Under the pieces are notes generated by a model. That model searched no databases. It had not been told where the DNA came from and worked only from the letters and a program-made list of their open reading frames with translations. 64,000 bases of DNA. It comes from an uncultured cyanobacterium (lineage in GTDB: Bacteria > Cyanobacteriota > Cyanobacteriia > PCC-9006 > JAAUQQ01). The position numbers and the translations under genes were made by a program. Shown here one piece after another: positions 1 to 12,664 of the stretch (positions within the stretch are counted from its first letter, which is position 1; every line of letters begins with the position of its first letter). The stretch spans positions 4,512,001 to 4,576,000 of the forward strand of contig OY970368.1 in NCBI GenBank assembly GCA_963718615.1. Reading direction: 5' to 3'.

Positions 1-2465
1 GACAGGGCAACTATGCCGCAGCTAACGCGTTTTTAGATGCGATCGCCCAAACCCGCCGTGCCCAAGGCCAAACCGCCCTCAGCCTCAATTGGGGACCTTG
101 GGCTGATACAGGCATGGCCCAGCAAACCCGCTTAAATCGGGGCTTCGAACCCCTGCCTCCCACCCTCAACCTGGCTCGACTCCCGCAACTTATGGCCTTG
201 CCAACGGCCCAAGTGGGACTGTTTCAAGCGAACTGGAACTTGCTCAGTCAACTCTTCCCTCAGCTTCGAGACCGGGCCTATTTCTCGGCAGTTTTTCCAA
301 ACAAATCAGCCGACTTACAACAGACCTCAGCGATCGCCCAATCCCCAATAAAGTCCCCAATATTAGAACAGTTGCGGACAACCACCTCCGAACAACGACC
401 GCTGCTGATTCAAGACTATTTGCGCGGGGCGATCGCCCATATCCTCCAAACCGATCGCGATCAGATCGCCCCCACCGCCAGTCTGCTCGACCTCGGCATG
501 GACTCGCTGATGATCATGGAAGCGATTAACCAGCTCAAACAAGATCTGCAACTCATGCTCTACCCCCGCGAGTTCTACGAACGCCCTCGGTTAGATGCCC
601 TCGCCCAGTACTTAGCCGTAGAGTTTGAGAAAAACCAAGGACTTACCCCAGACTCTGTTGAAACCACACCCCTCCCCTCCATCACCCCATCACCCCATCA
701 CCCCATCACCCCACCCCGTCCTGCCCCCGCCCAAAAGCTCCCCCCCGTCGCCTTCATCCTCTCCAGCCCCCGCTCCGGCTCCACACTCCTGCGGGTCATG
801 TTGGCGGGTAACCCGGCCCTATTCTCTCCCCCCGAGTTGCATCTACTTCCCTTTGAGACCCTGGGTGAACGTCGCCAAAGCTTGGGGGTTTCTCACCTAG
901 GTGAAGGGTTACAACGGGCGATCATGGACCTGAAAGGGCTGGATGCGGAGGCCAGTCGGGCCTTAATTCAAGACCTCGAAAATCGGGACGCCCCCCTGGA
1001 AGAAGTCTATGGGTTGCTGCAAGAACTGGCGGGCGATCGCCTCCTCGTCGATAAATCCCCCAGCTACGCCAGTGATCCCGCGAACCTGATCCGGGCCGAA
1101 CGCATTATCGAAGGCGCAAAATACATTCACCTCGTCCGTCACCCCTACGCCGTCCTCGAATCCTTCTGTCGCATGCGTATGGACAAGCTGGTGGGTGATG
1201 GTCGTCAGTCGCCCTTGGATCTGGCCGAGCAAATCTGGTGCGCCAGCAACAAAAATACCCTAGACTTCTTTGACCAGCTTGACCCCCATCAGCACTATTT
1301 AGTTCAATACGAAGATCTGGTGCGCGATCCCGAGGCCGTCCTGCGCCCCCTGTGCGATTTCCTGGGCGTGCCCTTTGCGGAGGCAATGTTGAATCCCTAC
1401 AGTGGCGATCGCATGACCGACGGCATCCATCGCCAATCCCTGTCCCTGGGTGATCCCAACTTCCTCCAACGGCAGCAGGTTGATGCCAGCCTTGCTGACC
1501 AGTGGCGCACCATCGAGCTCCCCCGATTGCTTCAGCCCCAGAGTCAGTTCTTAGCTCAGCAACTCAACTACGAGCTCCCCCAGGAAGCCTTGGCTCGGGC
1601 AGCGGCACCGAGCTCAATCCCCATGACCGAACGCTTTATCAACGTGCGTGGGCTCAATCTTTGCCTTTGCACCTGGGGGCCAGAGTCGGGACCGCTGGTG
1701 GTCTGCCTCCACGGCATTTTGGAGCAGGGGGCCTCTTGGCTAGAGGTGGCCATGCGGTTGGCGGAGAAGGGATATCAGATCGTTGCACCGGATTTCCGAG
1801 GCCATGGGCGATCGCCCCACGCTGAGCGGGGAAGTGCCTACAACTTGATGGACTTCCTAGCCGATCTAGACGGCATTGTCGAACGCCTGACGGATAAACC
1901 CTTTACGCTCGTGGGCCATTCCCTAGGATCAGTTGTCGGGGCCATTTTTGCCAGTATTCGCCCCCATCGGATCCGCAATTTGGTTCTGGTAGAAACCATT
2001 TTACCGACGGAGAGTGATGACAATGAAACCGCCGATCAGTTGGTGACACACCTCAATTACTTAGCCTCCCCACCGGAACATCCCGTTTTCCCTGATGTTG
2101 CCACTGCCGCCGAACGCCTGCGTTTAGGCACCCCGGCCTTGTCCGAAGCCCTTGCCCTACGCCTCGCGGAGCGGATTACCGAGCCCTGTCCGGGGGGCGT
2201 GCGCTGGCGCTGGGCACCGCTGCTGCGAACCCGAGCGGGGATTGGCTTCAATGGCATTACCAAGTCTCGCTATCTAGGCTTGCTGCGCCGGATTCAGACG
2301 CCGATTACGTTGGTGTATGGCGATCGCAGCCAGTTCAATCGTCAATCCGATCTCCAAGCCCAACAGGAAGCCCTCGCCCATGCTAAACGGGTGATTGTTT
2401 CCGGCGGCCATAATCTGCCCATCGACGCACCTTCGGCCCTGGTAGAGGTGATTTTATCGTCCTAA
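1..2465 (+). CDS. ols: 3' part of an Ols/CurM-type modular PKS (olefin synthase-like): KR C-terminus, ACP, sulfotransferase, thioesterase. The gene starts upstream of the window.
   Basis: The frame is open from base 3 (QGNYAAANAFLD...SLNWGPW, KR). ACP motif LGMDSLM; sulfotransferase PAPS motif SPRSGSTLLR plus DKSP; alpha/beta-hydrolase thioesterase GHSLG...GGH. The ACP-ST-TE terminus is characteristic of Ols and CurM; the symbol is tentative because the 5' end is not visible. Confidence 0.85.
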   Translation, partial: QGNYAAANAFLDAIAQTRRAQGQTALSLNWGPWADTGMAQQTRLNRGFEPLPPTLNLARLPQLMALPTAQVGLFQANWNLLSQLFPQLRDRAYFSAVFPNKSADLQQTSAIAQSPIKSPILEQLRTTTSEQRPLLIQDYLRGAIAHILQTDRDQIAPTASLLDLGMDSLMIMEAINQLKQDLQLMLYPREFYERPRLDALAQYLAVEFEKNQGLTPDSVETTPLPSITPSPHHPITPPRPAPAQKLPPVAFILSSPRSGSTLLRVMLAGNPALFSPPELHLLPFETLGERRQSLGVSHLGEGLQRAIMDLKGLDAEASRALIQDLENRDAPLEEVYGLLQELAGDRLLVDKSPSYASDPANLIRAERIIEGAKYIHLVRHPYAVLESFCRMRMDKLVGDGRQSPLDLAEQIWCASNKNTLDFFDQLDPHQHYLVQYEDLVRDPEAVLRPLCDFLGVPFAEAMLNPYSGDRMTDGIHRQSLSLGDPNFLQRQQVDASLADQWRTIELPRLLQPQSQFLAQQLNYELPQEALARAAAPSSIPMTERFINVRGLNLCLCTWGPESGPLVVCLHGILEQGASWLEVAMRLAEKGYQIVAPDFRGHGRSPHAERGSAYNLMDFLADLDGIVERLTDKPFTLVGHSLGSVVGAIFASIRPHRIRNLVLVETILPTESDDNETADQLVTHLNYLASPPEHPVFPDVATAAERLRLGTPALSEALALRLAERITEPCPGGVRWRWAPLLRTRAGIGFNGITKSRYLGLLRRIQTPITLVYGDRSQFNRQSDLQAQQEALAHAKRVIVSGGHNLPIDAPSALVEVILSS
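679..713 (+). repeat. Tandem 8-mer CCATCACC x4 in the ACP-ST linker
   Basis: ccatcaccccatcaccccatcaccccatcacccca, encoding ...ITPSPHHPITPP... Confidence 0.9.
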
Positions 2466-3018
2466 GCGGGATGTGGTTTGTAACCTCCCCCCTCAGCAAG
2501 GGCAAACTGGAGGATAATTTTTCACTGTCTTTTAGTGGAGATTAAGCCTAGTTTTGGAGAATGATAGAATAAATTCCTATGATTGAGCGCCTGCGGATCA
2601 TCGTTGGAGGTTTTATGAGTGCTGCGAATGCTGCTATTGAGTCGATCGAGCCTCAACCTTGTCTACTGAATGTGAGTGATGTCAAATTGATGGTGACGCC
2701 GGAACATTTCGATCGGCTCTGTATTCAAAATCCAGATTTACGTCTTGAGTTAACGAAAGATGGAGAGTTGATTGTTATGTCTCCAACGGGGGGAGAAAGT
2801 GGGAAAAGAAATATTAGCTTAGGGGCTGATGTTGAAATTTGGAATCGCCAAACGAATCTGGGTGAAGTGTTTGATTCATCGACTGGTTACGATTTTATCG
2901 CGATCGGGGGTGGGAAGATGTCGCCGGATGTGTCTTGGATTGAAAAGTCGCGTTTGGTGGGTGTGGATTTGGTTGGGTTTATTCCGATCGTGCCTGATTT
3001 TGTGATTGGGTAGTCCAA

Positions 3019-3459
3019 TTATGTGGGTGCTGGAGAGAATGAAGCGGCATGAGCCTGCTTAAGGCGCAATTGCTGGTTGTAATGGTGAACGAAATTCCAG
3101 ATCGCAGCCTCGTGGTTCTCTTGTTTCTTTGAAAACGAGAGCGCCTTTCGGACCAAGCGCGACACCCTTTGCCGCAGGGTGCAGTTGAACCTCTCGATGT
3201 AGCTCGTCAGCCCGCTTTCTTTCCCAACCGCTCGGTGGCGTTGGCTAGGAAGCACACAGGCATAGCTCTCCCAATAATCGGTGTAGATGACTGCACATTG
3301 GCGGTACACTCCCGGTAGAGACCGCCATAAAGCTTCGGCAGATTTAGCACTTCGGTCCCCGATATAAAGGCCAATGATTTCGCGAGTGTCCGCATCTAGA
3401 GCAATCCAAACCCACTGTTTATTTCCTTTATGGTCCACGAACGACCAGAGTTCGTCCAT
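3019..3459 (-). CDS. insB: IS1 transposase InsB part (DDE), joined to InsA by a -1 frameshift
   Basis: MDELWSFV, YTDYW, IERFNCTLRQR...FSK motifs. Confidence 0.92.
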   Translation of the reverse strand: MDELWSFVDHKGNKQWVWIALDADTREIIGLYIGDRSAKSAEALWRSLPGVYRQCAVIYTDYWESYACVLPSQRHRAVGKESGLTSYIERFNCTLRQRVSRLVRKALSFSKKQENHEAAIWNFVHHYNQQLRLKQAHAASFSPAPT

Positions 3460-3467
3460 CTGGACCG

Positions 3468-3791
3468 TCAGAGCTTTTTTACTTTCTTCGTCACTTCCAC
3501 CTCCCGAGCAACGGTTTTAGCTTTGGCGTTGACGTAGGTCTGAATGCAGCTCTCGGAGCGCTGCATCACCCGAGCAATTCCAGCAATGGCCAGCCTTTCA
3601 AGCAATAAACGTTCGAGCAAGGCTATCTCTTCATCGCTCAAGGGAAGGGATTTCGGAGTCAGGACAAACCGGCGATGGCAATCTCGACATTTATAGCTTT
3701 GAGTACCGCGATCGTTGAAGCCGTTACGGCTGATATCTTCAGATAGACAGTTAGGACAATGAAGCAGCTCTTGAGTCATCGCAATTGGCAC
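3468..3791 (-). CDS. insA: IS1 transposase InsA part (zinc finger plus HTH)
   Basis: CPNC...KCRDC zinc ribbon. Ends in the A-AAA-AAG slippery run (3474-3480, minus strand). Confidence 0.9.
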   Translation of the reverse strand: MPIAMTQELLHCPNCLSEDISRNGFNDRGTQSYKCRDCHRRFVLTPKSLPLSDEEIALLERLLLERLAIAGIARVMQRSESCIQTYVNAKAKTVAREVEVTKKVKKL

Positions 3792-4109
3792 AGAAGGGTC
3801 TTACCCAGTTTGCTTTTTCTTTCTCTAATGGCCACAACATACTCATCCCCCAGCTAAAGGCACTACCTGTGATTGAACTTAGATCTGCTACGGATAATCT
3901 CAAACTATTGCAGGAGAAGATGGCGGAATATCGGTGGTTGGGGGTGAGATTGGGCTTGTTAATCAATCCGAAGAATGAGCAGATTGAGGTGTATCGTCCT
4001 GGGCGGGATGTGGAGATCTTGGCGTCGCCGAGTGCGATCGATTGTGGTGAGGTGATGCCGGGATTTGTGTTGAGTATGAGTCGGATTTGGTAACTGATGT
4101 TGTTGTAGA

Positions 4110-4189
4110 CCGACTTGAATCGCGCTGGATGTATTACTTGCATTCCCTGGCATCCATGCTGCCGTGCAAGTCATCGCAGGCCGTTAGCA
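4110..4189 (-). other. Degenerate attC-like hairpin (R'' box present, R' box lost)
   Basis: Minus strand begins TGCTAAC. Arms GACTTG/CAAGTC and TGGATG/CATCCA pair. No GTTRRRY at the far end. Confidence 0.35.
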
Positions 4190-4698
4190 GCAGGTTTTCT
4201 AGACGAGAGGGTTAATTTCATTAAGGATTCAGTTGCGCTCTATTGGGGTGGAGTGTCAATTATCCTTCGGTCTGATGTTTTACGGGCTGGCCTATGGCCA
4301 CAGTTGTTAGGGCGCAAGTGATATGTCAACGAGGTCAATTTAACCCGCAGGTTCGAGGTCAAGCTTTGACTTTTAACGCCTAGCCCAACCGTTCCCCATC
4401 CTCCCGTCCGCTGCAAGGGGGCTAGGTTGATATCATCGTTTCCTGGAATCGCTCGAGGGATAATTGATAACACTTCTCCAGTTTTAGCAAAAGACTGATA
4501 GTATTGCACGACTCTAGATTCACAGCATACCCGCCACATCTAGTACTAAATAGGATTAAGTACGCCATATATAGAGTGCCTGAAATGCTTTCATATGAAC
4601 ACCTTTGTTTGTAGTGCATATATCAACAACAAAAAGACTTATAGCTCATATTTTCAGTTCTATGAGCTACAAACTTCTTTGCCGACAATGGATAATCC

Positions 4699-5825
4699 TC
4701 AAAACACACTTCTCCCTTCAGCTACATTCAGCAGTTCTGAAAATGCATAAACAGCAGGGCGACGCCCACTAGCCTCTCTTAGAGTTTTCAGGATTTCGTT
4801 CTCTCGAAGCACAGAAAGGATTCTTTTTGCAGTTGGCACGGGAATTTCGTTACAATTCGTAAAATCCGAAGATTTAAAAATCGGACGAGAAAAAATAAAG
4901 TCTAGTGCATGAATAGCATATTGCGAATGAGTCAAGCTGATAATTTGACCTTTTTGCTTTTCATATAATGTTAAAATCTCCTGTGCTTTTTTCTGATTCT
5001 CTTGAGCTTGTACCGCTACTGCTTTTAAAAGAAAACGCACCAATTTGTCCAATCGTTATCACGCGAAATTGATAACAGTCTTTCATAGTATTCATCACGA
5101 TGAGCTTCAAAAAAGGCACTGATGTAAAACATTGGACTTTGAATTAATCCAGTTTTATACATAAACAGTGGCACACACATTCTACCTAGTCTTCCATTTC
5201 CGTCTAAAAAAGGATGCAAAGCCTCAAATTCAGCATGTACAAGTGCTAGTTGAACTAATCGATCGGGAGCTTCATCGTGAATAAATTTTTCCCATCTATC
5301 TAGTCCCTCTTGTAAACGATCAACAGAAATTGGAACATATCGAGCATCATCAATTGAACATCCAGGTTGACCAATCCAATTTGGAATCCGTCGATAGTCG
5401 CCTGGAGATTTTCCATGCCCCCTAACTCCCTCCAACAAAACGTGATGAGCTTGCTTGATCACACGCTGACATAGAGGAAGTTCATGAAGTAACTCAATTG
5501 CAGACCACATAGCTCGACGATAGTTCAGCACCTCATTGATATCGTCTTCTCGCTCCGCTGGAATATCATCTAGTCTTCCTTCTGCCTCATACTCAAGCAC
5601 CTCACCCATAGTCGCCTGAGTTCCTTCAATGCGAGATGACAAGACAGCTTCCTGTGTCGTTAACGGACTTAATAATAGGTTGGCATTTGGAATTGCCGCA
5701 AGAGTTCCGTCATATCGAGCCAGTGCTGCACTGGCTGGTCCAATTAAGGGAATGAGCTTAGACCAGTCGATATCCTTTGGAGGAAACTTATCGTAATGGT
5801 AGTGTACAGGCTGATTCATGATCAC
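4699..5825 (-). pseudogene. Fic-domain protein (N-terminal inhibitory motif type, C-terminal HTH-like region) split by a 1-nt frameshift; second integron cassette
   Basis: HPFLDGNGRLGR Fic motif and SSRIEG inhibitory motif. WCVFF* at 5025 continues as LKAVAVQA in another frame; one T is missing in TTTTCTTTTAAAA. Confidence 0.88.
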
Positions 5826-5901
5826 AGCCCCTAGCTTGCATACAATAGAATACTAAAATTTTTCATAGAAATGCTGTTATCGTTTCTCATTAAAATTTTC
5901 A

Positions 5902-5988
5902 ACCTAACGTTCCCAAGCAGTGGCTCAAAGCAACGTAGCGCCATTGTAGACCAATTCACTGAGTCCGTCTGCCTTGGGCTTGTTATGC
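5902..5988 (-). other. Integron attC recombination site (87 bp)
   Basis: Minus strand: GCATAAC-aagc-CCAAGgCAGaCGGaCTCA...TGAGCCACTGCTTGG-gaac-GTTAGGT. R'' and R' boxes, paired L arms, and unpaired bases on the 5' arm; 22 bp after the stop of 6011-6505. Confidence 0.85.
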
Positions 5989-6010
5989 GTCGCAATTAAC
6001 CCTTGTGCTT

Positions 6011-6505
6011 TTAAGAGCCGGGTGAAAATCGAAAAATGCTTGGCATATTGCTGGAAGCCGGAGTCTTACTAGATACACATTCGAGAACTAGCGCATAGCT
6101 ATCTACAACACTACATTGGGCACCTACCATAAATCCTGCTTTGCCAGAGGCTTCATGAACAATAAATCGGCTTCCTTTCGGCTCAAATTTCAAAGATCCA
6201 ACTAGCTGCCCTTTCCCTAGATCACACCCTAAACCTCCACATCTTGCATTCTTACCAAATGGCTCTAACTTGTATGTGTTGTATATGCTTAAGGTATTCT
6301 GGCTAATCTCAGTGTACAAAGCACTTGAATAGATTTCCTGATTATCTTCTGCTCTCAACCAGCTAAACGAAACAAAAGTCTTATTAGCATCACTCCAAGC
6401 CTGAATGAGGGAGCTATTTCTTTGTTGAGCAAATGCAGGAGAGGTGACCAAACTATGAATGAATCCAATGGCCAATAATGGTGTGAAAAAGTTTATTTTT
6501 TGCAT
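6011..6505 (-). CDS. Secreted hypothetical protein with four Cys; first integron cassette (cassette 5908-6549)
   Basis: Signal peptide ending SPAFA|Q; AT-rich; only about 40 bp between the GTT crossover and the ATG; followed by attC. Confidence 0.75.
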   Translation of the reverse strand: MQKINFFTPLLAIGFIHSLVTSPAFAQQRNSSLIQAWSDANKTFVSFSWLRAEDNQEIYSSALYTEISQNTLSIYNTYKLEPFGKNARCGGLGCDLGKGQLVGSLKFEPKGSRFIVHEASGKAGFMVGAQCSVVDSYALVLECVSSKTPASSNMPSIFRFSPGS

Positions 6506-6543
6506 AGAAGTGATTAATTACTCAGAAGGTAATTAAGAGTTGA

Positions 6544-6613
6544 GTATAACAATTTAGTATGCAGAACTTTTCCGTATATTGCCCCCGTGGGGATGACATA
6601 CGGAACTTTTCCG
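6544..6613 (-). other. attI-like site: GTTATAC core preceded by two direct repeats
   Basis: Minus strand CGGAAAAGTTC (6603-6613)...CGGAAAAGTTC (6564-6574)...GTTATAC (6544-6550). Internal hairpin TTCCGTAT/ATACGGAA. Lies between the first cassette and a divergent intI remnant. Confidence 0.6.
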
Positions 6614-6698
6614 GATGTCCCCAGGAGAACATCAGAATAATTCTGAATATCATGCCATCTAGGGCGATCTGCCAAATGATTCGGTCTATCACGCTACC

Positions 6699-6808
6699 CC
6701 ACAAAAACCTCCAAAGAAACTCCTGAAAAGGGCTCACGAAGCATTATACCAAGCATTATTCTCATAATACACAGAAAACTATCGAGATGGGTGCAAGCAC
6801 TGAGTTAA
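6699..6808 (+). pseudogene. intI: Decayed N-terminal fragment of an integron integrase
   Basis: Across two frameshifts it reads PQKPPKKLLKRAHEAL / TKHYSHNTQKT / RWVQ, matching the IntI N-terminal pattern (PKKLLxQVRxAIRxKHYSxRTExTYxxW). It is divergent from the cassettes, as expected for intI. Confidence 0.62.
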
Positions 6809-6855
6809 CCTAGACGACAGCGAACCGGACAACAAAATTATTGAGATTGTGTCCC

Positions 6856-7440
6856 CTAGACCCTGGCAATAGTCACCTGCTGAGGTTGATCCTGGTACTT
6901 GCCCTTGCGGGTTTCATAGCTGACATCGCAGGGATCACCCTCAAAAAACAACAGTTGTACACACCCCTCATTGGCATAAATCCGCGCATCCGCCGGAGAA
7001 CTATTGCTAAACTCCAGCGTCAAGTGCCCACGCCAACCCGCCTCTGCTGGCGTAAGATTAGCAATAATCCCGGCCCTGGCATAGGTTGACTTGCCGATGC
7101 AAATGACCGTGGCATTTTCCGGCACAGCCAACTTCTCTAGGGCAACCCCTAAGCCATAACTATGACCGGGCAAAATGAAAAACTCACCCTGCTCATCTCG
7201 ATGGAGTTTGGCGGGTTCTAAATTGTCAGGATTAAATCGTTTCGGGTCAATGACAGTGCCGGGAACGTGGCGAAAAATGCGGAAATCTTCCGGAGAAAGG
7301 CGAATATCATAACCATAACTGCTGAGGCCAAAGGAAATGACGGGTAAATCCTCTGGGGTACGGCGGACCAAATGGGACTGAAAGGGCTCAATCATGCCTT
7401 GGGTTGCCATTTCTTTAATCCACAAATCATTCTTAATCAT
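6856..7440 (-). CDS. dcd: dCTP deaminase
   Basis: SFGLSSYGYDIRL, GKSTYAR, TPAEAGWRGHLTLE, YQDQ. Confidence 0.95.
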   Translation of the reverse strand: MIKNDLWIKEMATQGMIEPFQSHLVRRTPEDLPVISFGLSSYGYDIRLSPEDFRIFRHVPGTVIDPKRFNPDNLEPAKLHRDEQGEFFILPGHSYGLGVALEKLAVPENATVICIGKSTYARAGIIANLTPAEAGWRGHLTLEFSNSSPADARIYANEGCVQLLFFEGDPCDVSYETRKGKYQDQPQQVTIARV

Positions 7441-8144
7441 GCTTCAATTCCTGGAATCCACATTTGTCCGGGGGGGGCGATCGCCTCGGCTGAAATTTTA
7501 AGCGCTGGCTTCGCCAAATGAACCGCCAAGGGCTGCGACGGGGGCGTTGGTCTCAGCCGTTGGCCTTGAGCTGCGTTTACCGGGCGAGCGATCGCCACCC
7601 CAAAACAATTACGCAACTCCGTCACCTGGTCCGCCGCTTGCAGAAGCGCCGCAGGCATCTGGGGGCCGGTCAGGATCACATCCGTAGATTGAGGGCGCTG
7701 CTTCAACACCCTTAAAACCTCGTCCACGGGAACGATACCGTAAGCGATCGCCAAACTCAGCTCATCCAAGATCACCTGGCCATAGGTTCCCAGCCGCACC
7801 TGATCCTGCGTAAACGTCCAGAGCTCAAGGATGGCCTCCCGAGCGATCGCCGACGGGGGAAAACCATTGACCGCCTCAGGCAATCGACAGCGCACCCAGT
7901 TCAAATGCTGACCCAGCTGCACCGGATGCTCCGGCCCTTGTCCAATTCCCCCTTTGCAAAACTGCACCACCAAAACCGACGTGCCCTGCCCCGCATCCCG
8001 CAGGGCCTGGGCCATAACCGCCGTAAAAAAATTGCGATGGGTACAGGTAAAGACCTGAACTTGCCCCGCAATCGGCAATGGACTGTGCGATTGCAACGAG
8101 AGCGGTGAGACACGCCGCAGGGTATCGTGGGGTTGAGCAATCAT
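7437..8144 (-). CDS. BtuR/CobO-like P-loop protein (cob(I)alamin adenosyltransferase family), translationally coupled to dcd
   Basis: VVQFCKGG, VILDEL, DVILTG, ADQVTE; 4-bp overlap with dcd. Confidence 0.8.
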   Translation of the reverse strand: MIAQPHDTLRRVSPLSLQSHSPLPIAGQVQVFTCTHRNFFTAVMAQALRDAGQGTSVLVVQFCKGGIGQGPEHPVQLGQHLNWVRCRLPEAVNGFPPSAIAREAILELWTFTQDQVRLGTYGQVILDELSLAIAYGIVPVDEVLRVLKQRPQSTDVILTGPQMPAALLQAADQVTELRNCFGVAIARPVNAAQGQRLRPTPPSQPLAVHLAKPALKISAEAIAPPGQMWIPGIEA

Positions 8145-8217
8145 AGTTTCTAGTCAAGCCGCAGGATCAGACCGTTAGTATATCGACTGATTTGGGGGTT
8201 TGCGATAAAACGGGGCG

Positions 8218-8275
8218 AAACTAAATATAGCGTATCTCTTCCATAGGATTTTCTATCAGACGCTACATACAGGCC
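8218..8275. promoter_or_regulatory. Tandem NrdR-box-like operators upstream of the btuR-like/dcd operon
   Basis: AAACTAAATATAGCGT (8218-8233) and ACGCTACATACAGGCC (8260-8275) compared with consensus acaCwAtATaTwGtgt; 42-bp spacing. Confidence 0.6.
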
Positions 8276-8360
8276 ATAAAGCAGGGCGATCGCAAGCCGT
8301 CCTGCTTCCATCCGCCGCAGCCTCTTACAATAAATGCGTTCACTCCCCCGGAGGCTTTCG

Positions 8361-9098
8361 ATGGCTTGGCAACGTCCCGATGGTCGGCATTCCCAACAAT
8401 TGCGACCGATTGTGTTTGAGCGGGGCTTTACCCGGACCCCAGCGGGTTCGGTCTTGGCTAGCTGCGGCGAAACGAAGGTGCTTTGTACCGTCAGCGTGGA
8501 AGAAGGGGTGCCGCGTTTTTTGAAGGATAGCGGTCAGGGTTGGCTCACGGCGGAATATCGCATGTTGCCGGGGTCCACCCCAGAGCGCCAGCGGCGAGAG
8601 TTGATGAAACTGTCAGGGCGAACCCAGGAGATTCAGCGGTTGATTGGGCGCAGTTTGCGGGCAGCCCTCGACATGGACGTTTTAGGGGAGCGAACGCTGA
8701 CTGTCGATGCGGATGTGATTCAGGCCGATGGCGGTACGCGCACAACGGCGATTACCGGTGGATTTGTGGCATTGCAGGAGGCGATCGCCCAGTTGCTAAG
8801 TCAGGGCGTTTTGGCGCGATCGCCCCTCCAGCGAGGCATTGCGGCGGTCTCCGTGGGTCTGATTGACGGAGAGCCGATCCTGGACTTGAACTATCCCGAG
8901 GATGTGGCCGCGACGGTTGATTTTAATGTGGTGATGACGAGCGAGCTAGAGCTGATCGAAGTCCAGGGCACAGCCGAATCCGGCACCTATAGCCGACGAC
9001 AGCTTGACCAAATTCTCGATGTCGCAGAAACAGGCATTCAAGAACTGCTGAGACTGCAAGCCGCTGGGGCAACGCTCATCCCCTCCCATGCGGGTTGA
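8361..9098 (+). CDS. rph: Ribonuclease PH
   Basis: [42 protein letters not shown]. Confidence 0.96.
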
Positions 9099-11782
9099 CC
9101 CTCGGCCCTATCTGCGCACCCTGCTCAAACCCAATCGTCTGGCGATCGTCGAAGCTTGCATTATTGGGGTGGTATCTGGGTTAGCGGCGATCGCCCTGCG
9201 TCGCGGAGCCGCTTTGATCGGGGGATGGCGACTGTCTCCGCCGGGTGAGCTGCCGCTTTGGCTCTGGATCCCTGGATTTGCGGCCAGTCTCTGTTTGCTC
9301 GTGGGCTGGCTGATTGAGCGAGTCGCTCCAGAAGCGGCAGGCAGCGGCATTCCCCAGGTCAAGGCGGCGTTAGCCCTAGTGCCCACAGCGATGAATTTGC
9401 GGGTGGCTCTGGTCAAGCTGGTGGGAACAGTGCTAGCCCTCGGCAGTGGCGTGCCCCTAGGACGACAAGGCCCTTCGGTCCAAGTGGGTGCCGCGCTGGC
9501 AGGACAGCTTAGCCGTTGGGTACCGACCTCCCCTGAATATCGACGGCAATTGATTGCAGCGGGGGCAGCGGCAGGCTTGGCTTCGGGGTTTAATGCGCCC
9601 ATTGCCGGGGTTTTGTTTGTCATCGAAGAATTACTCCAAGACCTGTCAGGGTTGACCCTCGGAACCGCAATTATTGCTTCGTTTATTGGGGCGGTGGTGG
9701 CCCGGTTGCTTGATGGCAAGGGGTTGGATGCCTCGGTGAGCATTATGGCCGACGCGGCGGGGATTACCTTGCAGGAGATTCCGTTGCTGCTCTTTCTAGG
9801 GCTGTTGGCCGGGGCATTGGGCGGCCTTTTTACGCGGGGAATTCTGGCGAGCTGTCGTTTTTTTAAGACCCAAGTGAGATTAACTCTGCCCGTGCGGATG
9901 TTGATCGTGGGGTTGATCATTGGTCTAGTGGTGGCGCTGCTGCCGCCGGAGTTTCGCGATAGTGCAGGCTTGCAAGAAAGTTTGCTGCGGGGCGATCGCC
10001 AGTGGCAAACCAGTGCCGTCGCCTTTTCGTTTAAGTTTGTGCTGACGCTCTTGGCCTACGGAGCAGGGATACCCGGCGGGCTGTTTGCTCCGGCGCTGTT
10101 GCTGGGGTCTGCCCTGGGGGATCTGCTGTCGTTCGCGGTCCATGCATTGCCTCAGCTCTCTTGGTGGCCGGACTCCTTGGTCATCACGATTAGTTCTGCC
10201 AGCACCTATTCCCTCGCTGGGATGGGCGCTTTTTTTAGTGCGGTGACTAAGGGGCCGATTACGGCCATCGTCATCGTCTTTGAAATGACCAATGATTTTA
10301 ATTTGGTCCTACCGCTGATGATTACCTCGATCATGGCCTACGGAGTCTCCAGCAAAATCTGTCGGGGGTCGGTCTACAATCACCTGTTGGCCATGGATGG
10401 CATTGAGCTCTTATCCAACTCGCCCCACAAGCATCTTTGGGAAACCCTCACAGCCGCCCAGGTGATGCAGCGCCAAGTCGAAACACTGGAAGCTCAGACC
10501 CCCCTGGAAGGGGTGCGACAGACCTTCAATCGATCGCACCATCGGGGGTTTCCCGTGGTTGAGCGAGGCAAGCTGGTGGGGATTATTTCTCGCTCTGATG
10601 TGGTTGCGGCCAGTACCCGTTATGACGACACCACACCGATCCGCCAACTGATGACGCCCCAGCCCGTGACGGTTGAGCCCCAGGCTTCGCTGGCCACGGT
10701 TTTACATTTATTGACGCGCCACCAGGTCAGCCGCCTGCCGGTTCTGGAGGGGCATCGCTTGGTGGGAATTATTACGCGGGCCGATATTATTCGAGCGGAG
10801 TCCGAGCAAATCGATGGTCCTGATGCGCTCCTGCCCCAACCTACAGACCCGTCCTATGTGGTCTATCAAACCAGAAGGACCCAATGTAGGTCAGGGACGA
10901 TTGCTGGTGCCCTTGTCCAATCCTCAGACGGCTCCGACGTTGCTACAAATGGCCGGGGCGATCGCCCGCCACCACCACTACGAACTGGAATGCCTCCACA
11001 TCATTACCATCCCCCGTCACCGCCGCCCCGCCGAAACCCCAGTCAGCATCGAACCTAGCCTGCGGCTGTTGCAAAAAGCCATGCGCTTGGCCCAGGATTG
11101 GGAAATAAGCGTTCATACTCAAATCCGCGTCACCCACAGCGTCTCTCAGGCCATTCTTGAAACCATCCAGGAACGCCATATTGACCTGACACTGCTGGGA
11201 TGGCGGGGGCAGTCCCAGGGCAGCGGTCTGATTTTTAATGACACCCTGGATACCCTGATTCGGCAAGCGCCCTGTGGCATTGTGCTGGTCAAGCTCGGAC
11301 AGCACTTTAACCAGGGCGAAGTCCGCTACCCGTCGCTACTGGCTCGCCTGCATCTCAATCGCTGGCTGGTGCCCACCTCCGGGGGGCCGAATGCGGCCTT
11401 GGCCCTAGAACTCTTGCCCGCCTTGGTCAACCTCAGCGGAACCCCCGAAATCCAACTCTTCCAGGCCCAAAAACCCACCCAGGAGGCTCCACTGCCCTAT
11501 CAGGTCTCTGTGGAGGAAGCCCAGAATCGACTCAATGCCATGGCGAACCGCTTGGGCGAGCAGCTCAATTGTCCGATCGAAACCACAGCGGTCTGTGCCT
11601 ATTCCATTCCAGAGGCGGTTTTGGACATGGCCGACCATAAGCACTGTGATGTGATTGTTTTAGGTGCAAGTCGAGAGGGGATGTTGCAGCAGGTGATTCA
11701 GGGGAACGTGCCGGAGGCGATCGCCCGTCAAAGCCGCGCCACGGTGATTCTCGTACGGGGTCCCCTAGGGCGTCTCGGTTAA
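9088..11782 (+). CDS. ClC chloride channel/transporter with CBS pair and C-terminal universal-stress (USP) domains; apparent frameshift near 10875
   Basis: GSGIP, GRQGP and GLFAP motifs; two CBS repeats. YVVYQTR joins [16 protein letters not shown] if one A is removed from ACCAGAAGGACC. ORF 10814-11782 has tandem USP domains. Confidence 0.85.
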
Positions 11783-12664
11783 GCTTTCGCCACCCCCCAG
11801 AGTGAGGCGCAGGAGCGACGGAATCAAAATCAATAAGAACAACACCAGCCCAATGGTACAGCCATAGCTGATTTCCAACTCCCCAAAGGCTTGCTCATAG
11901 ACGTAGTAAACAATCGTCTTAGAACTGTTGATCGGCCCCCCCTGAGTCATGATGTAGACCTCTTCAAAGACCTTCGTGGCAGAAATCGACGAAATCACCG
12001 CCACCAGCACCAGGTAGGGTCGCATCAGCGGCAGCGTAATATCCCAGTGCTTTGCCAGCCCCTCAGAACCATCGATCGCCGCCGCCTCATAGAGCTCCGG
12101 CGAAATCCCCTGGAGTCCCGCCAAATAGACCACCATGTAATAGCCCAGCCCTTTCCAGACCGTCACCGCCATCACACTCAACAGCGCCAAATTTGGACTC
12201 GTTAGCCACGGAATGGGCAACAGAGCCGTCCTAAGTTTCTCATTGCCTAACACCCCCGCCAGCATCTGATTAAGCAGACCATTCTCCGCATAAAGCCAGT
12301 TCCAGGCGATCCCGGCTACCACCATCGAAATCACTACCGGGGTATAGTAGGCCAGCCGAAACCAATGGATCCCTCGCAGCTTTTGATTGACCAAAATAGC
12401 CAACCCCAAGGGCAAAATCATCAGCAACGGTACCACCCCTACCAAATACACCACCGTATTGCGCAGCGTCTTCCAAAAAGTTGCATCCCGCCAAAGCCGC
12501 TGAAAATTCTCCAGCCCGATCCACTGCGGCGGCTGGATCAAGTCGTAATGGGTAAAGCTAAAATAGAAAGCTTGGAGCGCAGGCCAAAAGACAGTGAGGC
12601 CCAGAACCAGCAGGGCAGGAAGTAGGAAAAAGTAAGGCGTTATGTTGGAGCGAAGACGGGTCAT
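11765..12664 (-). CDS. Carbohydrate ABC transporter permease (MalF/LacF family)
   Basis: EAA loop LYEAAAIDG, TQGGP, six TM segments. Confidence 0.9.
   Translation of the reverse strand: MTRLRSNITPYFFLLPALLVLGLTVFWPALQAFYFSFTHYDLIQPPQWIGLENFQRLWRDATFWKTLRNTVVYLVGVVPLLMILPLGLAILVNQKLRGIHWFRLAYYTPVVISMVVAGIAWNWLYAENGLLNQMLAGVLGNEKLRTALLPIPWLTSPNLALLSVMAVTVWKGLGYYMVVYLAGLQGISPELYEAAAIDGSEGLAKHWDITLPLMRPYLVLVAVISSISATKVFEEVYIMTQGGPINSSKTIVYYVYEQAFGELEISYGCTIGLVLFLLILIPSLLRLTLGGGESLTETP

What the first reader, a model, noticed from the sequence alone, without database searches (positions are those of the whole stretch)
4100..6810. Cryptic decayed integron: intI remnant, attI-like site, cassette, attC, Fic cassette
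Seen in the sequence: a frameshifted + strand peptide PQKPPKKLL...KHYS..TQKT..W (6699-6808); a GTTATAC core with upstream direct repeats (6544-6613); an AT-rich ORF starting about 40 bp after that core; an 87-bp attC; then a Fic gene. The tract lacks HIP1 by eye. Established: integrons have intI divergent from attI and cassettes bounded by GTTRRRY. The first cassette begins GTTATAC, a 6/7 complement of its own R'' GCATAAC, while the present R' is GTTAGGT; this is the scar expected from integrase-mediated insertion. Inference: a full integron sat downstream of dcd and lost most of its integrase, freezing the array. Integrons are little studied in cyanobacteria, and the ORF track shows none of the integron sites or the intI remnant.
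Basis: partly seen in the sequence, partly recalled or inferred. Interest (0 to 1): 0.85.

Follow-up and report, generated by a model that had tools for sequence, protein, structure and literature searches.

The report
Decayed integron relic beside dcd
This is the wreck of a gene-capture element (an integron) in a cyanobacterial chromosome: its integrase gene is reduced to a stub, but its docking site, one recombination site and two captured genes remain, which is a real but ordinary find.

Summary
A DNA profile built only from two other integron platforms of this genome (one with an intact integron integrase) matches window 6554-6779 colinearly. The match runs from the attI core through four spaced direct repeats into the first ~26 codons of intI (genome-wide E 1.4e-8).

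Paralogous platforms stop being alike exactly at GTTA, the canonical crossover. The 87-bp site at 5902-5988 is an attC. A covariance model built from 22 other sites of the genome, with this site left out, finds it as the only hit in the 64-kb window (E 6.6e-7). The family of 27 sites shows compensatory pairing. Sixteen of the 27 lie on the cassette side of an intI platform, all correctly oriented.

The Fic unit is a true cassette. A 93% identical copy sits directly at another attI in a metagenome contig, and a ~92% identical copy sits behind a different attC.

Three things are not supported. No attC closes the Fic cassette. Decay in place is not shown. "Frozen" is doubtful, because an intact IntI exists elsewhere in the genome.

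Decayed integrons are common and published, and this scan had already reported one in this genome at another locus.

The parts
6702..6812 (+). intI remnant. It holds the first ~26 codons (firm to 6779) and perhaps ~37 codons (to 6812). The start codon is lost, there are at least two frameshifts, and the rest of the gene (about 290 codons) is absent.
   Evidence: Platform profile alignment to 6779, envelope to 6798. Pairwise alignment to the paralog at 4713.0k runs to 6812, and the paralog's ATG aligns with a non-start triplet. Protein-level evidence alone is weak.
6559..6692 (+). attI accessory region with four direct repeats of the type CAGAAnnTTTC(n)5AT. They lie at 6559-6585, 6598-6624, 6630-6656 and, degenerate, about 6670-6692. 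They are presumed integrase-binding sites.
   Evidence: The same motif and almost the same spacing (39/32 against 40/33 nt) as upstream of the intact intI at genome 948k and the relic at 1907k. Binding is inferred, not tested.
6545..6551 (-). attI core GTTATAC, with the crossover between G (6551) and TT (6550).
   Evidence: Three closest paralogous platforms (window, 4713.0k, 1477k) share ...ACTRAATT-GTTA and differ from there on. The same break occurs at 948k against 1907k.
5908..6550 (-). Cassette 1 (643 nt). It holds ORF 6505-6011 (164 aa, signal peptide, four conserved Cys, CGGLGCDLGKGQ motif) followed by its attC.
   Evidence: ORF listed. 25 homologs at 44-100% identity, none with a Pfam domain. 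Boundaries come from the attI core and the attC R'.
5902..5988 (-). attC site, 87 bp. R'' is GCATAAC and R' is GTTAGGT. It has a 3-nt unpaired spacer, a 6+3+2+4 bp interrupted stem, three extrahelical positions on the R''/L'' arm and a loop region of about 31 nt.
   Evidence: CM R2 gives 91.8 bits. The leave-out CM R3 gives 39.5 bits, E 6.6e-7, and this is its only hit in the 64-kb window. Family covariation is shown.
4614..5907 (-). Cassette 2, firm part. It holds a Fic-family adenylyltransferase pseudogene (5825-5025 plus 5052-4699) with one frameshift around 5020-5050, followed by a terminator-like hairpin at about 4645-4672.
   Evidence: Pfam Fic_N 1.1e-26 and Fic 3.4e-15. NF046030 matches both halves colinearly. 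The metagenome contig L059 is 93.4% identical over window 5908-4614 and there begins directly at an attI. Relatives have open frames of 375-377 aa and one more base at 5021-5026 (table 4).
4422..4619 (-). A 65-codon ORF that travels with Fic in some metagenome contigs. Whether it belongs to cassette 2 is unresolved.
   Evidence: Contigs of runs X5 and X3 align as far as 4423, and X2 pieces cover 4468-5908, but L059 diverges at 4614. No family hit.
4279..4383 (+). Flank: the last 34 codons of a dihydroorotase-like gene (remnant), convergent with the cassettes. The far junction of the array lies between about 4390 and 4423.
   Evidence: tblastn with the genome's own paralog gives 53% identity over 34 aa, E 7.8e-9.
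6856..7440 (-). Flank: dcd (dCTP deaminase), intact. Its 3' end lies 43 nt from the end of the intI remnant.
   Evidence: Pfam DCD 9.3e-23. Orthologs found in 23 of 30 relatives.

Best explanation
Window 4423-6812 is the relic of a chromosomal integron of a lineage that has left at least nine platforms or stubs in this cyanobacterial genome.

Shown:
- The platform (attI core, four accessory repeats, intI 5' end) is homologous to those of an intact integron and of other relics in the same genome.
- intI is reduced to about 26-37 codons, has no start codon and carries frameshifts, so no integrase can be made here.
- Two captured units follow on the minus strand. Cassette 1 encodes a small secreted cysteine protein and carries a well-formed attC. 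Cassette 2 is a Fic adenylyltransferase gene broken by one frameshift.
- Both cassette starts lie exactly at a G|TT crossover.
- The Fic unit occurs elsewhere at an attI and behind a different attC, so it moved as a cassette.

Inferred:
- The cassettes were inserted by IntI-mediated recombination of the folded bottom strand of attC (the window's plus strand) with attI.
- Later deletions removed most of intI and the far end of the array, including the attC of the Fic cassette.
- attI and the remaining attC may still be substrates in trans for the intact IntI at genome 948656-949594.
- Cassette 1 is probably still expressed from a promoter in the platform. This last point has no support from the data.
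For: Platform:
- The nhmmer profile, built from 948k and 1907k only, hits window 6554-6779 at E 1.4e-8 genome-wide and is colinear over model positions 14-242.
- The window is 82% identical over 200 nt to the relic at 4713.0k.
- Repeat spacing is 39/32 nt against 40/33 nt at the intact integron.
- Homology among paralogous platforms ends at GTTA.

attC:
- A CM from two sites found seven more. The second round gave 26 sites genome-wide and 27 when the fetched loci were searched.
- On the 27-site alignment, 89.8% of cells are paired against 28-42% when partners are slid. 15 of 20 pairs have changes on both sides, and 0 of 500 shuffles reach the covariation score. This alignment was fitted to the model, which favours pairing.
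- The leave-out model R3 (22 other sites) hits only 5898-5992 in the whole window, E 6.6e-7.
- 16 of 27 sites lie within 25 kb on the cassette side of a platform, all 16 correctly oriented and none wrongly placed. The other 11 have no platform within 25 kb.
- Extrahelical bases sit on the arm that carries AAC in the top strand, and the outermost is T in the bottom strand, as described in PMC5027507 (passages read).

Cassette junction rule:
- The complement of R'' matches the cassette's own start at 6/7 (window), 7/7 (1907k), 6/7 (948k), 7/7, 6/7 and 7/7 (arrays at 4718620, 4720059, 5046648).

Fic mobility:
- L059 is 93.4% identical over 5908-4614 and is preceded by attI-type repeats and a 36-codon intI stub.
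- The X5 contig is about 92% identical over 4423-5911 and is preceded by the family's L' arm with a different stem.
- Fic homologs in L061 and L069 have a family attC just downstream and just upstream respectively. That is 2 of the 32 loci searched, out of 80 fetched.

Foreign composition:
- GC is 0.41 against 0.52 for the genome, with no HIP1 in the tract.
Against: - The intI stub is not significant as protein or as a stand-alone DNA match. It is carried by the colinear platform alignment.
- The attC hairpin folds no better than shuffled sequence (z -0.35 and -0.58).
- The unpaired spacer is 3 nt rather than the usual 5-6, and the first extrahelical base in the bottom strand is C where G is usual.
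- IntegronFinder's attC model could not be run. My models are specific to this genome's attC family.
- No attC closes the Fic cassette (filters off, window 1-12000), and L059 and X5 disagree on its far boundary (4614 against 4423).
- Homologs of the cassette-1 protein in four other genomes show no family attC next to them.
- The junction rule fails for the sites whose R'' reads CCATAAA.
- The promoter scan found no more sites than chance (3 against 6.0 expected).
Confidence: 0.9

Rival explanations
1. The platform did not decay in place. An already truncated platform with cassettes was copied or moved here from another relic by duplication or rearrangement, and the locus was never a complete integron.
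For: The nearest relative of the window's platform is another wreck at 4713.0k (82% identity). Both lose similarity to intact intI at about the same model position (239 against 242). The last 30 nt of the window's stub align about as well to that paralog's internal-deletion junction as to intact intI. The locus sits at a synteny break: dcd and thyX are adjacent in relatives G001 and G003 but 315 kb apart here. Truncated genes lie on the other side.
Against: The two paralogs carry different first cassettes starting exactly at GTTA, so attI was used after they diverged. The shared-junction alignment is only 19 of 28 matches. No flanking repeats or transposase tie the tract together. The IS1 element at 3019-3791 lies inside a separate Uma2 gene.
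Confidence: 0.3
2. The locus is not a dead relic but a working satellite site. attI and attC are still recombined in trans by the intact IntI of the 948k integron, so the array is not frozen.
For: An intact IntI exists (443.8 bits, no stops). One attC family is shared by arrays behind all platform types. Paralogous relic attI sites carry different first cassettes. The same Fic cassette sits at an attI whose intI is also a stub in L059. PMC4889954 (passages) argues that cassettes without a neighbouring integrase can be mobilised in trans.
Against: There is no direct evidence of recent exchange. The window's repeats differ from those of the 948k attI at many positions. The Fic frame is broken, which fits neglect. 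No reads or circular junctions were available.
Confidence: 0.25
3. The resemblance is by chance: an AT-rich island with a hairpin and a Fic gene, not an integron.
For: The hairpin energy is ordinary, the protein-level intI match is weak, and Rfam has no match.
Against: Platform profile at E 1.4e-8 genome-wide. Leave-out CM at E 6.6e-7. Covariation in the attC family. 16 of 16 orientation agreement. Cassette boundaries shared with independent contigs.
Confidence: 0.02

Closest known systems
Chromosomal integrons with inactivated intI ('pseudo-integrons'), such as those of Xanthomonas; surveyed in PMC2426708
   Same: intI is decayed while attI and cassettes persist. Several intI copies and pseudogenes occur in one genome. 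PMC2426708 (passages read) reports that nearly one third of intI genes are pseudogenes and that more than a fifth of integron-bearing lineages have more than one intI.
   Different: Here only about 26-37 codons remain, whereas that survey defined pseudogenes by stop codons, frameshifts or a size change of at least 20%. The host is a cyanobacterium with at least nine platforms or stubs.
[quoted passage not shown] 2016, PMC4889954
   Same: attC-bearing cassettes without a working neighbouring integrase. Loss of intI and rearrangement are among the proposed origins (passages read).
   Different: A CALIN needs at least two attC sites, and this locus has one. Single sites were discarded in that study. 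Their pseudogene search used the C-terminal IntI profile, which could not see an N-terminal stub. Here the attI is still recognisable.
Sedentary chromosomal integrons with homogeneous attC families (Vibrio cholerae VCR arrays)
   Same: A genome-specific attC family with conserved arms, three extrahelical bases spaced about 3 bp apart like VCR2 (PMC5027507 passages), and long loop regions.
   Different: The arrays here are short (1-4 detected sites) and scattered over many loci. The unpaired spacer is 3 nt, and the first extrahelical base is C in the bottom strand.
attI1 of class 1 integrons (simple site plus direct repeats DR1 and DR2)
   Same: A GTTRRRY core preceded by direct repeats next to the intI 5' end.
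   Different: There are four repeats at about 32-40 nt spacing, and their sequence is unrelated to attI1. The attI1 layout is recalled, not tested here.

Membership tests
Integron (complete) | An intI gene of the integron-integrase family (TIGR02249, with the IntI-specific extra domain) next to attI | tested here: not met
   TIGR02249 gives no match in the window. Only about 26-37 N-terminal codons remain, and the part that would hold the extra domain and the catalytic residues is absent.
Integron relic (platform) | An attI next to the intI 5' end, divergent from the cassettes, with the crossover in GTTRRRY | tested here: met
   Colinear platform alignment at E 1.4e-8. Homology among paralogs ends at GTTA. 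GTTATAC departs from GTTRRRY at one position (T in the second R place).
attC site | R'' RYYYAAC and R' GTTRRRY at the ends of an imperfect palindrome of 57-141 bp | tested here: met
   GCATAAC matches at 6/7 and GTTAGGT at 7/7; length 87 bp. The length range and consensus are from PMC5027507 passages.
attC site | [quoted passage not shown] | tested here: met
   Fold and alignment. There are three extra positions on that arm, spaced 3 plus about 3. The outermost is T in the bottom strand. The first is C, where G is usual.
attC site | An unpaired central spacer of 5-6 nt between the R and L boxes | tested here: inconclusive
   An unpaired spacer is present but only 3 nt per arm, in almost all 27 family members.
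attC site | A match to the IntegronFinder attC covariance model | not testable with these tools
   The model is not available here and Rfam has no match. The substitute was a genome-specific CM built without this site, which gives 39.5 bits, E 6.6e-7.
Gene cassette | The same unit is found in different arrays with its boundary at the G|TT crossover | tested here: met
   Met for the Fic unit: L059 (at an attI) and the X5 contig (behind another attC) both break at 5908-5911. Not shown for cassette 1.
Gene cassette | The cassette's own attC at its 3' end | tested here: not met
   This row is for the Fic unit. There is no family attC in window 1-12000 other than 5898-5992. Cassette 1 does meet this feature.
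CALIN (Cury 2016) | At least two attC sites without an integrase | tested here: not met
   Only one site was detected.
Fic/DOC family (Pfam PF02661, PF13784) | Fic_N and Fic domains with the HxFx(D/E)GNGRxxR motif | tested here: met
   Fic_N 1.1e-26 and Fic 3.4e-15. HPFLDGNGRLGR is visible in the ORF; the motif definition is recalled. The reading frame is broken once.

The most novel reading that the evidence does not exclude
Integron relics that keep attI plus a short intI stub may not be junk. They could be maintained as satellite docking and expression sites served in trans by one intact integrase, so that a single genome runs many small arrays. Three observations fit this. Paralogous relic attI sites carry different first cassettes from exactly GTTA onward. 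The same Fic cassette heads another stub-only platform in a metagenome contig. N-terminal-only intI fragments look over-represented among sampled cyanobacteria.
Probability: 0.15. Interest if true: 0.6.

Novelty: new member of a known kind. Interest (0 to 1): 0.3.

Why it matters
The locus adds a well-documented example to what is known about how integrons decay. It shows that a stub of about 30 codons plus attI repeats can still be recognised by comparison with sister platforms in the same genome. Standard pipelines would miss it, because they look for the C-terminal IntI profile and need at least two attC sites. It also gives a genome-specific attC model with 27 sites and a census of at least nine platforms in one cyanobacterium. 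That is useful for annotation and for testing whether relic attI sites are still used. It does not change the picture of what integrons are.

Tried and rejected
- **Rfam, window 4000-7000, E up to 10:** only three chance-level hits and no attC family.
- **TIGR02249 on the own genome:** did not list the window's stub.
- **tblastn of the own IntI against 4000-7000:** E(2)=0.21, and an unrelated hit scored better.
- **nhmmer with the intI 5' 150 nt alone:** the window hit had E=86 genome-wide.
- **Two home-made regular-expression attC detectors:** failed even on the window's own site and were dropped. A motif count for the L'-R' arm gave 28 sites. My hand estimate of about 13 expected by chance came from no call, and the count was not used further.
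- **Fold energies of either strand of the attC:** not better than shuffles.
- **CM R2 on the dcd loci of four family-level relatives:** no hit.
- **CM R2 (filters off) on four loci with cassette-1 homologs:** nothing below E 0.09.
- **A weak R2 hit at 4380-4435 (7.2 bits, E 2.7):** rejected as an attC, because its 3' half is the conserved end of the dihydroorotase-like remnant.
- **The hairpin after Fic (about 4645-4672):** has no AAC/GTT boxes and looks like a terminator by eye, though the terminator scan called none in 4000-7000.
- **Promoter scan:** 3 sites against 6.0 expected. One of them (6675-6646, minus strand) faces the cassettes, but it is not evidence.
- **tRNA scan of 3500-7500:** none.
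- **Sequencing runs:** no RNA holder listed, so nothing can be said on expression.
- **The 65-codon ORF:** no homolog in the 80 metagenome loci apart from a 23-nt overlap in L059 and one short weak tblastn hit (23 aa, E 0.002, L135), and no paralog in the genome.
- **Earlier-findings look-ups by place (near) and by words:** returned nothing.
- **Supplementary tables:** those of PMC4889954 and PMC2426708, which list genomes with integrons, were not seen. They might already list this genome.
Full report
**What is there.** The window is G000:C1:4512001-4576000. Reading right to left on the minus strand from dcd (6856-7440), the tract holds these features:
- A short plus-strand stretch that translates, with frameshifts, to an IntI-like N-terminus.
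- Four direct repeats.
- The heptamer GTTATAC at 6551-6545.
- An intact 164-codon ORF (6505-6011).
- An 87-bp imperfect palindrome (5988-5902).
- A Fic gene in two frames (5825-5025 and 5052-4699).
- A 65-codon ORF (4619-4422).
- The last 34 codons of a dihydroorotase-like gene on the plus strand, convergent with the cassettes (4279-4383).

GC is 0.41 for 4541-6855 against 0.52 for the genome. No HIP1 octamer occurs between 2320 and 7477, although the window averages 1.5 per kb.

**The platform.** The genome has one intact integron integrase at 948656-949594 (TIGR02249, 443.8 bits, cut-off 265, no stops) and several fragments. That search did not list the window.
- With the own IntI as query, tblastn gives only E(2)=0.21. 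A DNA profile of the intI 5' end alone gives E=86 genome-wide. The stub is therefore not demonstrable by itself.
- The region upstream of the intact intI, and of a relic at 1907k, carries four repeats of the same motif as the window with nearly the same spacing (40/33 nt against 39/32 nt).
- A 331-position profile built from those two loci only hits window 6554-6779 on the plus strand with E 1.4e-8 against the whole genome. The alignment is colinear from just inside attI, through all four repeats, into intI to about codon 20.
- The same search revealed further relics at 3238k, 1477k and 4713.0k, and a weak one at 5615k.
- blastn shows the window's platform is 82% identical over 200 nt to the 4713.0k relic. 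The pairwise alignment runs to window 6812, and the paralog's ATG aligns with a non-start triplet in the window.

**attI crossover.** Written in the cassette direction, the three closest platforms read ...ACTAAATT-GTTATAC (window)...ACTAAATT-GTTAGAA (4713.0k) and ...ACTGAATT-GTTATGC (1477k). The 948k and 1907k platforms read ...TTAAGA-GTTAAAT and ...TTAAGA-GTTATGC. In each group similarity stops at GTTA. That is what is expected if different cassettes were inserted at G|TT of homologous attI sites.

**The attC.**
- A covariance model from the window's site and its one full-length paralog (genome 3237k, found, which itself lies 1.2 kb on the cassette side of the 3238k platform) found seven more sites.
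- A second model from those nine found 26 sites in the genome (150 of 1181 first-look candidates were scored) and 27 when run over the fetched loci.
- On the 27-site alignment, 89.8% of cells pair, against 28-42% when partners are slid by 1-3 columns. 15 of 20 pairs show changes on both sides, and no shuffle of 500 reaches the covariation score. The alignment was fitted to the model, which favours pairing.
- A third model built from 22 sites, leaving out the window's site and its paralog, finds 5898-5992 (minus strand) as the only hit in the 64-kb window at 39.5 bits, E 6.6e-7.
- 16 of the 27 sites lie within 25 kb on the cassette side of a platform, all 16 in the right orientation and none wrongly placed. 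The other 11 have no platform nearby.
- The anatomy agrees with the description in PMC5027507 (passages). The extra bases sit on the arm that carries AAC in the top strand, three of them are spaced about 3 bp apart, and the outermost is T in the bottom strand.
- Departures from the usual pattern: a 3-nt unpaired spacer, C instead of G as the first extrahelical base, and a fold energy no better than shuffles.
- With filters off, no second site exists in window 1-12000.

**The junction rule.** After insertion a cassette starts with the TTRRRY that once paired with its own R''. The complement of R'' matches the cassette start at 6/7 in the window (5/7 for the R' now downstream). It matches at 7/7 at 1907k, 6/7 at 948k, and 7/7, 6/7 and 7/7 at three internal junctions. 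The rule fails for sites whose R'' is read as CCATAAA by the alignment.

**The Fic unit is a cassette.**
- Metagenome contig L059 is 93.4% identical to window 5908-4614. Immediately before that point it carries attI-type repeats and, on the other strand, a 36-codon intI stub.
- A contig of run X5 is about 92% identical over 4423-5911. It is preceded by the conserved L' arm of this attC family with a different stem.
- Of the 32 metagenome loci searched (80 were fetched), two have a family attC directly after (L061) or before (L069) the Fic homolog.
- Relatives have open frames of 375-377 aa ending like the window's second frame. They carry one more base at 5021-5026 (table 4). NF046030 aligns to both halves colinearly. 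The window's copy is therefore frameshifted, or mis-assembled.
- Its far boundary is unresolved: L059 diverges at 4614 and X5 at 4423.

**Cassette 1.** The protein has 25 homologs (44-100% identity), a signal peptide, four conserved cysteines and no known family. Homologs in four named genomes are not next to a family attC, so mobility of this cassette is not shown.

**Context and history.** Only family-level relatives are held. In G001 and G003, thyX follows dcd. In this genome thyX lies 315 kb away, so the relic sits at a rearrangement point. Whether it decayed in place or arrived truncated cannot be decided (see the rival explanations).

**How common this is.**
- Integron integrases above the cut-off occur in 14 of 31 sampled genomes of the class, this genome included.
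- Integrons in Cyanobacteria, frequent intI pseudogenes and integrase-less cassette clusters are all published (PMC4889954 and PMC2426708, passages read; other titles seen only in the listing).
- Earlier notes of this scan describe decayed integrons at 4.71 Mb of this same genome. My searches agree with them.

**Verdict.** It is an ordinary kind of element with a good set of internal controls.

Noticed in passing
own genome (G000:C1), outside the window: The genome holds at least nine integron platforms or intI stubs: intact at 948k; relics at 1477k, 1907k, 3238k, 3859k, 4646k, 4713.0k and 4713.8k; a weak one at 5615k. They fall into two repeat types, one with CAGAAA...TTTC repeats and one with GGATAAC-type repeats. 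There are also 27 attC sites of one family, 11 of them with no platform within 25 kb.
   Followed up: partly
relatives G004-G030 (table): Among hits to TIGR02249 below the cut-off, about 12 fragments in 10 genomes cover only the N-terminal end of the model (starting at position 20 or earlier and ending before about 90). Clear C-terminal-only fragments are few. I did not check whether the rest of each gene is truly missing. This may mean that the attI-proximal stub is preferentially kept.
   Followed up: no
L059:1-700: A metagenome contig carries the same Fic cassette as first cassette at an attI with similar repeats. Its intI is also only a 36-codon stub followed by unrelated sequence.
   Followed up: partly
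window 2579-4093: An IS1-family element (InsA-like 3791-3468, DDE part 3459-3019, minus strand) interrupts a Uma2-family gene (2579-3013 and 3785-4093). An intact 201-aa paralog lies at genome 3909758-3910363.
   Followed up: partly
window 4279-4383 and 4094-4278: Only the last 34 codons of a dihydroorotase-like gene remain, 53% identical to the paralog ending at genome 1637867. The 185 nt before it match nothing. High-depth metagenome contigs align to 4315-4389, so this gene end is widely conserved.
   Followed up: partly
window 6856 and genome 4832957-4833721: dcd and thyX are neighbours in relatives G001 and G003 but 315 kb apart here. AT-rich ORFs of unknown function follow thyX at 4834480-4836258.
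   Followed up: no
genome 656401-657589: A second, intact Fic_N/Fic gene (396 codons open), about 41% identical to the window's copy.
   Followed up: no
L009:4353-5186 (genome 3237.4-3238.2k): In the sister relic at 3238k, the first cassette carries its 277-codon ORF on the strand opposite to the cassette direction.
   Followed up: no
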